Assembly: GCF_017348835.2 (NCBI RefSeq)
Contig: NZ_CP071375.1
Origin: Escherichia coli
Lineage (GTDB): Bacteria > Pseudomonadota > Gammaproteobacteria > Enterobacterales > Enterobacteriaceae
Direction: 5' to 3' (one strand)
DNA: 64,000 nucleotides
Shown here: piece by piece, positions 3,001-6,000 of the stretch
Layout of the letters: each line of letters begins with the position of its first letter
Numbering within the stretch: position 1 is the stretch's first letter
Program-made: the position numbers

Positions 3001-6000
3001 TATTGCATTGCCGTCGCATCGTAGCCCCACATGCCTTCCGGAATCGGGCCGCGCATTTGTTTTCCGTTACCACTCAGAATGCCGTTAACCATACCCTGAT
3101 AATCGGTAGACCAGGAAATGGCCCGCCGCAGATCCGCCTGATTAAGTGGCGCTTTGCTGTTATTCAGATACAGATAGGTGACGCGCAGTGACGGATACTC
3201 TGCCACATTGACTTTATTTTCCTGCTTCAGGGCGTTGAGTTGATCCACCGGCAGCGCATCGGCAATGTCAATGTCGCCACGGGAGAGCTGCAGGCGACGG
3301 GAGGCACTTTCACCGATAATTTTTACCGATACTCGCTTAAAGTTCGGTTTATTGCCGGAGTAATGCGGATTTGGCACCAGAACTAATTGCTGACCTTTTT
3401 GCTAGCTTTTCAGCATAAACGGTCCGGAGCCAGCGGTATTTTGCGCGAGGAAACCACGGGCATCATCCGCCGCATGTTCCTTTAACACCGCCGGATTGAT
3501 AATGGATGCACCGTCATTCGCCAGCGTGTAGAGGAACGGTGCAAATGGCTGGCTAAGGGTAAACTTCACCGTATGTTCGTCGGGAGCATCAATCTTTAAA
3601 TCTTTGGGAAATGCTTCTGCTGGCCCCTGGCCGATTTTTAGTAACCGCTCAAAAGAGAGTTTTACTGCTTCGGCAGTGACAGGTGTGCCATCGGCAAATT
3701 TAGCATTGTCCTTCAGGGTGAACGTCCACTCTTTTTGATCGTCAGACGCTTTCCAGCTACTTGCCAGATCGCCTTCAACGTCGGTTGAGCCTTTATCACC
3801 GTCCGTTATGTACTGAACCAGCCGCTGATAAGACGGGTAGGTCACTGTCCAGTCGTTATTATCTATTGTTACCGCCGGGTCGAGGTTTTGTGGATCGGCG
3901 GCCTTACCAATCACCAGCATATCTTTCGGTACGGCGGCGTGCGCAACCGGGAAAGTTGTGGCAAGGACGAGCGCGAGCAATGTGGGACGAAACGATATCG
4001 ATCTCTTCATGACAGTTTCCTGATTAACTGACGTGCTGTGTGCCAGGGGATATAAAACAGGTGAATTGATCAGCGAGCAGAGGGTAACTCGCTGCCTGGG
4101 GTAATTCGAAGTGCCACCATTCGCTGGAGATACCGACAAAACCGCCACCAGTCATTATCGCATTCAGCAACAGGCGATTGCGCTGAGCGGCGGGCGGGAC
4201 GGAAGGATGGTAAGCATGGGAACGTTCGTGCATTTCATCGAATCCTGCGCCCATATCGAGGATGTTCCCGTGCTCATCACGAAGCGTCAGGTCGATCGCT
4301 GTGCCACGGCTGTGATTAGAACCGACCGTCACATCAACAACATATTGCGGGTCTGGGCAGGCTTGCCACAACATCGCCTGTGCTTGTTGTGGGCGATACG
4401 CATCGTAAATCACCAGTTGTAAGCCTGACAGCTGGGCGATACTGATACTTTTCGCCAGCGCGGTAATCGCATCCTTGTGTAACAGACAACGCGCTTGCTG
4501 GTAAATAGCTTTACCTGTGATGTTATCAGCGCAGGCGTATTTCAATTCGATCTCCAGATCAGGGAAGATCGCGGCTAAATCAACCAGTTCGGTGGTATCC
4601 GACATAAACGGTTCCTGTATAAGACAAAAATTGCTGCGCTTTCCGCTTATGCAGATCTCATGCCATGCCGGGAGAAGCGCCAGAATGCTGGCTTAAAGTT
4701 ATATTTTTTAACTTTTGATCAACATTTGTGCAGCGTAGTGCAGTTTTGGTGCAAGAGGGGAAGTTAAGGAAGGAATCTCCCGGAATCGTAGCTGAAATCA
4801 CAGTATTTAAGTGACAGTGTCACGTTAAATGAAAACCCGCGAGTGCGGGCGAGAGGAATTTGTCAGATTTTCAGCGGTAACACGCTGCTCATCCAGCCTG
4901 GAATTTCTTCGGCGGGTAGGGGGCGGGAAAAGAAATATCCCTGAATAACGCGACAGTGGATCTTACGTAGCATCTCAAATTGCTCTTTGGTTTCGACGCC
5001 TTCCGCCACGACGGTTAAATTGAGGCTTTGCCCAATGCTGGTAATGGCTTCAAGTAAGGCAAGGATGCGTTTTTCCGTCAGACAACGATCGACAAAACTT
5101 TTGTCAATTTTGATTTCCGTTACCGGAAGACTGACTAAGCGGGATAATCCGGAAAAGCCCGTGCCAAAATCATCTACCGATAAACCCACGCCCATATCAC
5201 GCAGGATCTGAATGCGCTTAAAGATTTCGGTATCGTGTTCCATCATCATGCTTTCCGTGATTTCTACCGTCAGCTGGTGGCCGTCAATACCCCAGGCTTG
5301 CATTGCATCAGACACCTGATTAGGCAGTTGATTACTGCGAAAGTGCAGCGCCGACAAGTTAACGGATAACGCCGGGATATGAATATTCTGGCTACGCCAT
5401 TCTGCTAACTGACGGCAAGCTTCCGCGATGACCCAGCGCCCAATATTTTCGATTTCACCAATCTCTTCTGCGAGAGGAATAAACCGTGAAGGGGGCACAT
5501 GACCATGCTGGGGATCGTGCCAGCGAGCAAGGGCTTCGATGCCGTACAGTTCACCCGTTTCTGCGAAGATTTGCGGCTGGTAAACCAGTTTCAGTTGGTT
5601 ATTGCTAATCGCTTCTTTCAGCGCTGCGCCTAAAACCAAACGCTCTTTTACCATTTCGTTCATCGCCGGGCTGAAGAACTGCCAGCCGTTACCGCCATTC
5701 TTGCGAATATAATCCATTGCATTGTGAGCAGTGGAGAGCAGGTAATCGCGGTTTTTACCCACGTCGTAGCTGATGCCAATACTCAAGGTAAGCGGGAAGG
5801 GTTTATCGTCAATCATTATCGGCTTGCTGACCACATTCCGTAGCTCATCGGCGATTTGGGTAATGTTACTGACGTCGTTTTCCAGGCTCACGAGGACAAA
5901 CTGCGTACCTTCGATACGACAGAGATACTGATCCGGTTTGAGTTTTTCACGAAAGCGATTGACCACTTCCAGCAATGCCTGATCGGCCCACGCATAGCCA

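What the first reader, a model, noticed from the sequence alone, without database searches (positions are those of the whole stretch)
3377..3404. In-frame amber codon at codon 203 of ddpA
The two ORF-track pieces of ddpA are in the same reading frame and separated only by TAG (plus-strand cta 3402..3404). Reading through gives ...GPFMLKS*QKGQQLVLVPNPHYSGNK..., a continuous 516-codon periplasmic binding protein. A single TGG/CAG/TAC-to-TAG change would explain it. The substrate-binding component would be truncated while permeases and ATPases remain intact.
Basis: seen in the sequence. Interest (0 to 1): 0.5.

Follow-up and report, generated by a model that had tools for sequence, protein, structure and literature searches.

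The report
ddpA nonsense pseudogene (Trp203 to amber)
One base change (TGG to TAG) has put a premature stop into ddpA, the binding-protein gene of a non-essential E. coli D-Ala-D-Ala uptake system; this is an ordinary inherited gene loss that public annotation already flags in the closest relatives.

Summary
ddpA (window 2460..4010, minus strand) is a 516-codon frame interrupted once, by TAG at 3404..3402, which is codon 203. The ancestral codon is TGG (Trp). Five public assemblies carry ddpA DNA identical to the window's except G instead of A at gene nucleotide 608. A TGG probe hits 4,241 complete E. coli genomes and the TAG probe hits 3.

It is not a sequencing error. The same base is present in PE164 (pig, China), F2_81 (pig, Australia) and unrelated read-set assemblies, and RefSeq annotates ddpA there as a pseudogene with an "internal stop".

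No rescue is evident. The window has no tRNA gene, PE164's glnV and glnX keep the CTG anticodon, and none of 5,426 genomes has a supF-type tRNA-Tyr. The 202-residue product keeps only about a third of the SBP_bac_5 domain (residues 78-433).

Codon 203 has also been hit independently elsewhere: TAG in strain A1, and TGA on other haplotypes. Controls show nonsense alleles at other ddpA codons are about as common, and 21% of complete genomes lack ddpA altogether. This looks like recurrent loss of a dispensable gene, not a special hotspot.

Verdict: real, correctly interpreted, ordinary, low interest.

The parts
2460..4010 (-). ddpA pseudogene: a 516-codon frame for the periplasmic D,D-dipeptide binding protein with one internal stop
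   Evidence: Translation. The PE164 gene is 100% identical and PGAP annotates it 'ddpA, ABC transporter substrate-binding protein, pseudogene, internal stop'. In the Trp-restored protein, Pfam SBP_bac_5 covers residues 78-433 with E = 1.3e-101.
3402..3404 (-). Premature amber codon TAG at codon 203, derived from TGG (Trp) by a G-to-A change at gene nucleotide 608 (window position 3403)
   Evidence: for the sequence. L024-L028 differ from the window's ddpA only at nucleotide 608 (G); the TAG probe hits 3 genomes and the TGG probe hits 4,241.
3405..4010 (-). Coding part of the truncated product, 202 residues. It includes a Sec-type signal peptide (MKRSISFRPTLLALVLATTFPVAHA, roughly 3936..4010) and about the first third of the SBP_bac_5 domain
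   Evidence: The exact 202-residue product is found on 19 contigs in public assemblies. The signal peptide is judged by inspection only.
2460..3401 (-). Untranslated remnant of ddpA, codons 204-516 plus the stop. The mechanical ORF 2460..3377 starts at GTG codon 212 and has no signal peptide
   Evidence: for the ORF list. Gene callers report it as a separate 305-residue product in Logan assemblies.
4024..4605 (-). [quoted passage not shown]
   Evidence: In F2_81 and L012 the same lineage has lost 152 bp from its 3' end.
1436..2458 (-). ddpB permease, intact. Its GTG start lies 1 nt after the ddpA stop codon, so its translation is probably coupled to ddpA
   Evidence: for coordinates and intactness. 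The coupling is an inference from the spacing.
543..1439 (-). ddpC permease, intact
1..546 (-). ddpD ATPase, 5' part only because the window edge cuts it

Best explanation
ddpA in this genome is a recent, lineage-specific pseudogene made by one G-to-A transition that turned Trp203 (TGG) into an amber stop (TAG). Translation ends after 202 residues. The product keeps the signal peptide and about a third of the family-5 solute-binding fold, so it cannot close around a ligand or dock productively on DdpBCDF. High-affinity D-Ala-D-Ala uptake through this nitrogen-starvation-induced operon is therefore lost (inferred). About 940 nt of untranslated mRNA then precede ddpB, whose start sits 1 nt after the normal ddpA stop. 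Expression of ddpBCDF is therefore probably reduced as well, through lost translational coupling and Rho-dependent polarity (inferred, not tested). The lesion persists because the ddp system is dispensable in E. coli. The gene is absent from about a fifth of complete genomes and has been knocked out independently many times.
For: Sequence: there is a single in-frame TAG at codon 203.

Ancestral state: assemblies L024-L028 have ddpA identical to the window except G at nucleotide 608, and only 3-4 differences over 6.5 kb of flanks. TGG is present in 4,241 of about 4,280 ddpA-bearing complete genomes.

Heritable, not an error: TAG is present in PE164 and F2_81 and in Logan assemblies of DRR634103 and SRR31541392. 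The window is a separate assembly from PE164, at 99.98% identity with indel differences. PGAP calls the gene a pseudogene with an internal stop in PE164, F2_81 and A1.

No suppressor found: the window has no tRNA gene. PE164's glnV and glnX have anticodon CTG. No genome of 5,426 has a tRNA-Tyr with a CUA anticodon, and the listed carriers of the supE allele are K-12 laboratory strains.

Loss of function: SBP_bac_5 spans residues 78-433, and solved homologues such as DppA align over residues ~30-509.

Dispensability and decay: 1,146 of 5,426 complete genomes have no ddpA match. Later lesions are nested inside stop-carrying lineages: a 152-bp ddpX deletion in F2_81 and L012, a ddpC frameshift in A1 and L013, and a dosP-ddpX deletion in PCP06021. 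Other ddpA knock-outs are common: TAG at codon 128 (59 contigs), TAG at codon 54 (33 + 6 contigs), a frameshift product of 199 residues (85 contigs), and a frameshift in GDSC2227PM.

Operon function and regulation: ddpXABCDF encodes the D-Ala-D-Ala dipeptidase and transporter and is induced by NtrC/RpoN under nitrogen depletion (PMC8743547, read).
Against: No expression or phenotype data exist for this strain, so loss of transport and polarity on ddpBCDF are inferences. The window's own genome is not available. The suppressor check was made on its closest complete relative, PE164, and covered only supE and supF, not every tRNA that could mutate to a CUA anticodon. Low-level natural read-through of UAG, typically well under 1% in wild-type E. 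coli (from general knowledge, not measured here), could leave a trace of full-length protein.
Confidence: 0.93

Rival explanations
1. The TAG is a sequencing or assembly error, and the real genome has TGG.
For: TGG is by far the majority state (4,241 genomes). The related PE164 assembly does differ from the window by small indels, in gadB and in a poly-C tract, that could be assembly noise.
Against: The change is a substitution, not a homopolymer indel. The same A is present in at least four other independently sequenced samples of the same haplotype: PE164 from China, F2_81 from Australia, DRR634103 and SRR31541392. The exact 202-residue product occurs on 19 contigs.
Confidence: 0.01
2. The amber codon is decoded by a suppressor tRNA or by efficient read-through, so a functional full-length DdpA is still made.
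For: The frame downstream of the stop is fully open. supE alleles do exist in E. coli genomes: 155 of 5,426.
Against: The open downstream frame is explained by how recent the mutation is, since intact copies differ by 1 nt. PE164's glnV and glnX are wild type. No genome in the collection has supF, and the listed supE carriers are K-12 laboratory derivatives. The window has no tRNA gene. Stop-carrying lineages gather further ddp lesions, as expected for a dead operon. The stop is not conserved: 3 genomes against 4,241.
Confidence: 0.03
3. The gene works as two pieces: the 202-residue N-terminal fragment plus a 305-residue fragment re-initiated at GTG codon 212.
For: Gene callers report both pieces as separate products. 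The GTG lies only 24 nt after the stop.
Against: The downstream piece has no signal peptide, so it would stay in the cytoplasm while the N-terminal piece is exported. Eight residues are missing between them. No good Shine-Dalgarno sequence sits at the right distance from the GTG (inspection). RefSeq treats the gene as one pseudogene. Split family-5 binding proteins are not a known arrangement (general knowledge).
Confidence: 0.02

Closest known systems
E. coli K-12 DdpA, the periplasmic binding protein of the ddpXABCDF D,D-dipeptide ABC importer
   Same: Same gene, same operon order (dosCP - ddpX - ddpA - ddpB - ddpC - ddpD - ddpF), same 516-codon length, and 95-99% DNA identity to ddpA in 4,275 complete genomes. 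PMC8743547 describes the operon as the D-Ala-D-Ala dipeptidase plus transporter under NtrC/RpoN control.
   Different: Codon 203 is TAG instead of TGG, so only residues 1-202 can be made.
ddpA 'internal stop' pseudogenes annotated in RefSeq: PE164 (NZ_CP114128.1), F2_81 (NZ_CP043542.1), A1 (NZ_CP029328.1), PCP06021 and mip270_04
   Same: PE164 and F2_81 carry the identical allele on the same haplotype, with 0 and 1 nt difference over 1,551 nt. A1 has the same TAG. PCP06021 and mip270_04 have TGA at the same codon.
   Different: A1 is an independent origin: 33 nt differ from the window, and it is 1 nt from the intact MB06234 allele. The TGA alleles come from a different base change, G609A. The window is not the PE164 record itself.
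Solved family-5 peptide-binding proteins: DppA (1DPP/1DPE), MppA (3O9P), OppA (1B05), and an unnamed ABC substrate-binding protein (5U4O)
   Same: Homologous across essentially the whole length: query residues ~30-509, E = 6e-62 to 1e-36. The full fold is therefore needed to form the two-lobed binding cleft.
   Different: No structure of DdpA itself was found. The truncated product covers only the first ~40% of these folds.
Laboratory amber mutants rescued by supE44 or supF
   Same: Same type of lesion, a sense codon changed to UAG.
   Different: This is a natural isolate lineage with no supE (PE164) and no supF. Nothing suggests the stop is decoded.

Membership tests
DdpA / family-5 ABC substrate-binding protein (SBP_bac_5) | Pfam SBP_bac_5 domain | tested here: met
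   PF00496 matches residues 78-433 of the Trp-restored protein, E = 1.3e-101.
DdpA / family-5 ABC substrate-binding protein (SBP_bac_5) | Position in the ddpXABCDF operon, next to two permease genes and two ATPase genes | tested here: met
   The PGAP annotation of the collinear PE164 region gives ddpX-ddpA-ddpB-ddpC-ddpD-ddpF. The window ORFs match it.
DdpA / family-5 ABC substrate-binding protein (SBP_bac_5) | Uninterrupted reading frame giving a full-length exported protein | tested here: not met
   TAG at codon 203. By descent it is a member of the family, but it is a pseudogene.
Nonsense-mutation pseudogene | The stop replaces a sense codon that is conserved in orthologues | tested here: met
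   TGG in 4,241 complete genomes against TAG in 3 and TGA in 2.
Nonsense-mutation pseudogene | An intact allele that differs only by the causal substitution still exists | tested here: met
   L024-L028 differ from the window's ddpA at nucleotide 608 only. The Trp-restored protein is an exact database entry on 63 contigs.
Nonsense-mutation pseudogene | The lesion is inherited, i.e. present in independently sequenced relatives | tested here: met
   PE164, F2_81, DRR634103 and SRR31541392.
Nonsense-mutation pseudogene | Loss of the encoded function | not testable with these tools
   Inferred from loss of about two thirds of the binding domain and from later decay of neighbouring ddp genes in stop-carrying lineages. 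No phenotype data are available.
Suppressor-dependent or programmed read-through gene | A cognate suppressor tRNA (CUA anticodon) in the host | tested here: not met
   The window has no tRNA gene. PE164's glnV and glnX have CTG. No supF-type tRNA-Tyr occurs in any of 5,426 genomes. Other tRNA genes of the source genome could not be examined.
Suppressor-dependent or programmed read-through gene | The in-frame stop is conserved across lineages | tested here: not met
   The stop is confined to a few shallow lineages, and the ancestral TGG is nearly universal.

The most novel reading that the evidence does not exclude
Loss of DdpA may be favoured by selection rather than merely tolerated. Trp203 alone has been turned into a stop at least three times: TAG on two unrelated haplotypes, and TGA on others. 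Nonsense or frameshift alleles at many other ddpA codons each occur in tens of assemblies, and a fifth of complete genomes lack the gene. This could reflect recurrent adaptive inactivation, for example to block entry of a toxic peptide or antibiotic that uses the Ddp importer, or to save cost under nitrogen limitation in animal guts.
Probability: 0.12. Interest if true: 0.4.

Novelty: already known. Interest (0 to 1): 0.1.

Why it matters
It matters little. For annotation, ddpA here should be recorded as one pseudogene (internal stop, W203*), not as two proteins of 202 and 305 residues as automatic gene callers report. For biology, this lineage has probably lost high-affinity D-Ala-D-Ala scavenging under nitrogen starvation. 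It adds one more case to the pattern of the ddp operon being eroded or absent in many E. coli lineages. The only mildly interesting point is how often ddpA has been knocked out independently. That would matter only if a population-genetic test showed an excess over neutral expectation.

Tried and rejected
1. Hotspot at codon 203. After finding TAG on two unrelated haplotypes and TGA on others, I tested whether codon 203 is special. I made exact look-ups of the products expected from nonsense mutations at ten other Trp or Gln codons on the same N-terminal background. Eight of the ten exist. Codon 128 has 59 contigs and codon 54 has 6 + 33 contigs, against 44 + 19 for codon 203. Two controls were confirmed as true in-frame TAGs in DNA. 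ddpA has 47 transition-to-stop sites. With collections this large, recurrence at one site is expected, so I rejected the hotspot idea.

2. Methylation-driven deamination. By inspection the context GCTGGC is not a Dcm site (CCWGG), so I rejected this.

3. The window being the PE164 record. Rejected: identity is 99.98%, with a 2-bp difference in gadB, a 1.49-kb difference at hipA/IS3 and a poly-C length difference.

4. supE or supF rescue. Rejected for the closest relative and for the collection.

5. Literature search for 'ddpA' plus 'pseudogene'. It gave only irrelevant hits; in the top paper 'DDPA' means DAHP synthase.

6. Several 'partial' products of 197-202 residues on ~9-kb contigs (P0007, P0008, P0009, P0013) look like contig ends rather than stops. 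I did not count them as codon-203 events.

Full report
**Observation**

On the minus strand, ddpA starts with ATG at 4010..4008 and ends with TAA at 2462..2460. The frame has 516 codons and one internal stop, TAG at 3404..3402, which is codon 203. It reads ...GPFMLKS*QKGQQLVLVPNPHYSGNK.... The mechanical ORF list splits the gene into 3402..4148 and 2460..3377. The 3377 in the finding's coordinates is only the first GTG after the stop.

**Identity of the gene and of the window**

The 1,551-nt gene matches ddpA in 4,280 of 5,426 complete E. coli genomes. It is 100% identical only to strain PE164 (pig, Nanjing) and differs by 1 nt from strain F2_81 (pig, Australia). The PE164 annotation places it in the expected context: dosC-dosP, then ddpX-ddpA-ddpB-ddpC-ddpD-ddpF. 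The window is collinear with PE164 positions 2,536,843 onward but is not the same record. Identity is 99.98%, with a 2-bp difference in gadB, a 1.49-kb difference at hipA/IS3 and a one-base poly-C difference. The window therefore comes from a separately assembled close relative.

**Ancestral codon**

- A 33-nt probe centred on the codon can only hit genomes that share the central bases, because megablast needs an exact 28-mer. The TAG probe hit 3 genomes: PE164, F2_81 and A1.
- The same probe with TGG hit 4,241 genomes, and with TGA it hit 2.
- The Trp-restored protein is an exact entry in the protein collection, on 63 contigs.
- Five assemblies that encode it (L024-L028) have ddpA DNA identical to the window except G at nucleotide 608. 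They show only 3-4 differences across 6.5 kb including flanks.

The lesion is therefore a single, recent TGG-to-TAG transition (W203*).

**Real mutation, not an error**

The same base is present in PE164 and F2_81 and in Logan assemblies of unrelated read sets, DRR634103 and SRR31541392. The exact 202-residue product is found on 19 contigs. RefSeq/PGAP annotates ddpA as a pseudogene with an 'internal stop' in PE164, F2_81 and A1.

**Suppression**

- The window has no tRNA gene.
- I located the metT-leuW-glnUW-metU-glnVX cluster in PE164. Both CUG-type tRNA-Gln genes keep anticodon CTG, so there is no supE.
- A full-length tRNA-Tyr probe carrying a CUA anticodon matched every genome at 98.8% and none at 100%, so no supF exists in the collection.
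- The equivalent supE probe matched 155 genomes at 100%. Those listed are K-12 laboratory derivatives such as C600, DH5alpha, DH1 and J53.
- Limits: other possible amber suppressors were not examined, and the source genome itself is unavailable.

**Consequence**

Pfam SBP_bac_5 covers residues 78-433 of the restored protein. Solved homologues (DppA, MppA, OppA, 5U4O) align over residues ~30-509. A 202-residue product keeps the signal peptide and roughly a third of the domain, so it should not bind ligand or engage the permease (inference).

ddpB starts with GTG 1 nt after the ddpA stop. With translation ending ~940 nt upstream, loss of translational coupling and Rho-dependent polarity on ddpBCDF are likely, but neither was tested.

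The operon encodes the D-Ala-D-Ala dipeptidase and transporter and is induced by NtrC/RpoN under nitrogen depletion (PMC8743547). The expected phenotype is loss of D-Ala-D-Ala scavenging.

**Is codon 203 special?**

- Strain A1 (echidna) carries the same TAG on a haplotype 33 nt away from the window's, with differences 16 nt upstream and 43 nt downstream of the codon.
- A1 differs from the intact allele of strain MB06234 only at nucleotide 608. That makes it a second, independent origin.
- Look-ups of the A1-type 202-residue product also turned up TGA at codon 203 on further haplotypes: L014, L015, PCP06021 and mip270_04.

To check for ascertainment bias, I looked up the products expected from stops at ten other Trp or Gln codons on the same background. 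Eight exist. The codon-128 product is on 59 contigs and the codon-54 products are on 6 and 33 contigs, against 44 + 19 for codon 203. DNA confirmed CAG-to-TAG at codon 128 and TGG-to-TAG at codon 54.

Other lesions also occur: a frameshift product of 199 residues on 85 contigs and a frameshift in GDSC2227PM. ddpA has 47 transition-to-stop sites. Codon 203 is one of many sites at which ddpA has been knocked out, not a distinctive hotspot.

**Decay of the operon**

- 1,146 of 5,426 complete genomes have no ddpA match.
- Inside stop-carrying lineages, further lesions are nested.
  - F2_81 and L012 have lost 152 bp from the 3' end of ddpX.
  - A1 and L013 have a ddpC frameshift that other codon-203 stop carriers lack.
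  - PCP06021 has a dosP-ddpX deletion.
- This is the pattern expected for a dispensable operon under weak or no selection once its binding protein is gone.

**Comparison with known things, and novelty**

This is the known gene ddpA carrying an allele that already sits in public records and is flagged as a pseudogene. It meets the tests for a nonsense pseudogene: a conserved sense codon replaced, an intact sister allele still present, and inheritance across isolates. It fails the tests for a suppressor-dependent or read-through gene: no suppressor was found and the stop is not conserved. Nothing here is new in kind.

The most novel reading left open is that ddpA loss is positively selected. I could not test this, and I rate it unlikely relative to neutral decay.

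**Verdict**

The finding is ordinary and already annotated, so interest is low.

Noticed in passing
window 53225..54643 (-): A diguanylate-cyclase-domain gene between uxaB and yneG has an in-frame stop at codon 330 of 472. PGAP marks it 'internal stop' in PE164. It is a second nonsense pseudogene in the same window.
   Followed up: partly
window 35697..36842 (-): hipA is disrupted. The 5' piece is at 36549..36842, an IS3 remnant at about 36108..36493, and the 3' piece at 35697..36109. PE164 has 1.49 kb more here (the rest of the IS3 plus about 628 nt of hipA), so the window carries either a further deletion or an assembly collapse. hipB is intact in PE164.
   Followed up: partly
window 37319..40414 (-), poly-C at about 38901..38910: There are fragmented autotransporter remnants here, annotated as frameshifted or partial in PE164. 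A poly-C tract is C10 in the window and C11 in PE164. This could be slippage-prone phase variation or homopolymer sequencing noise.
   Followed up: no
window 12187..13587 (-): gadB is intact in the window (466 codons). PE164 has an extra TA at about 12574 and is annotated as frameshifted. That is either a real strain difference or an assembly error in PE164.
   Followed up: partly
window 58579..59693 (+): yneK is frameshifted, as annotated in PE164 over a 100% identical stretch.
   Followed up: partly
L002 (F2_81) and L012, equivalent to window about 4043..4192: Part of the W203* lineage has also lost 152 bp from the 3' end of ddpX. Likewise A1 and L013 have a ddpC frameshift, and PCP06021 has a dosP-ddpX deletion, on top of their codon-203 stops. 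Decay is stepwise after the ddpA knock-out.
   Followed up: yes
proteins P0007, P0008, P0009, P0013: Several 'partial' DdpA products end at residues 197-202 on contigs of about 9 kb. This suggests short-read contig breaks at nearly the same place in ddpA in other strains, possibly an IS insertion site near codon 200.
   Followed up: no
L001 and L002 11407..13551, compared with L004 11825..14033: Downstream of ddpF, the PE164/F2_81 lineage has a LysR regulator and CoA-transferase genes. A1, like PCP06021 and mip270_04, has osmC-bdm-sra there. The flanking gene content differs between the lineages that carry the stop.
   Followed up: no
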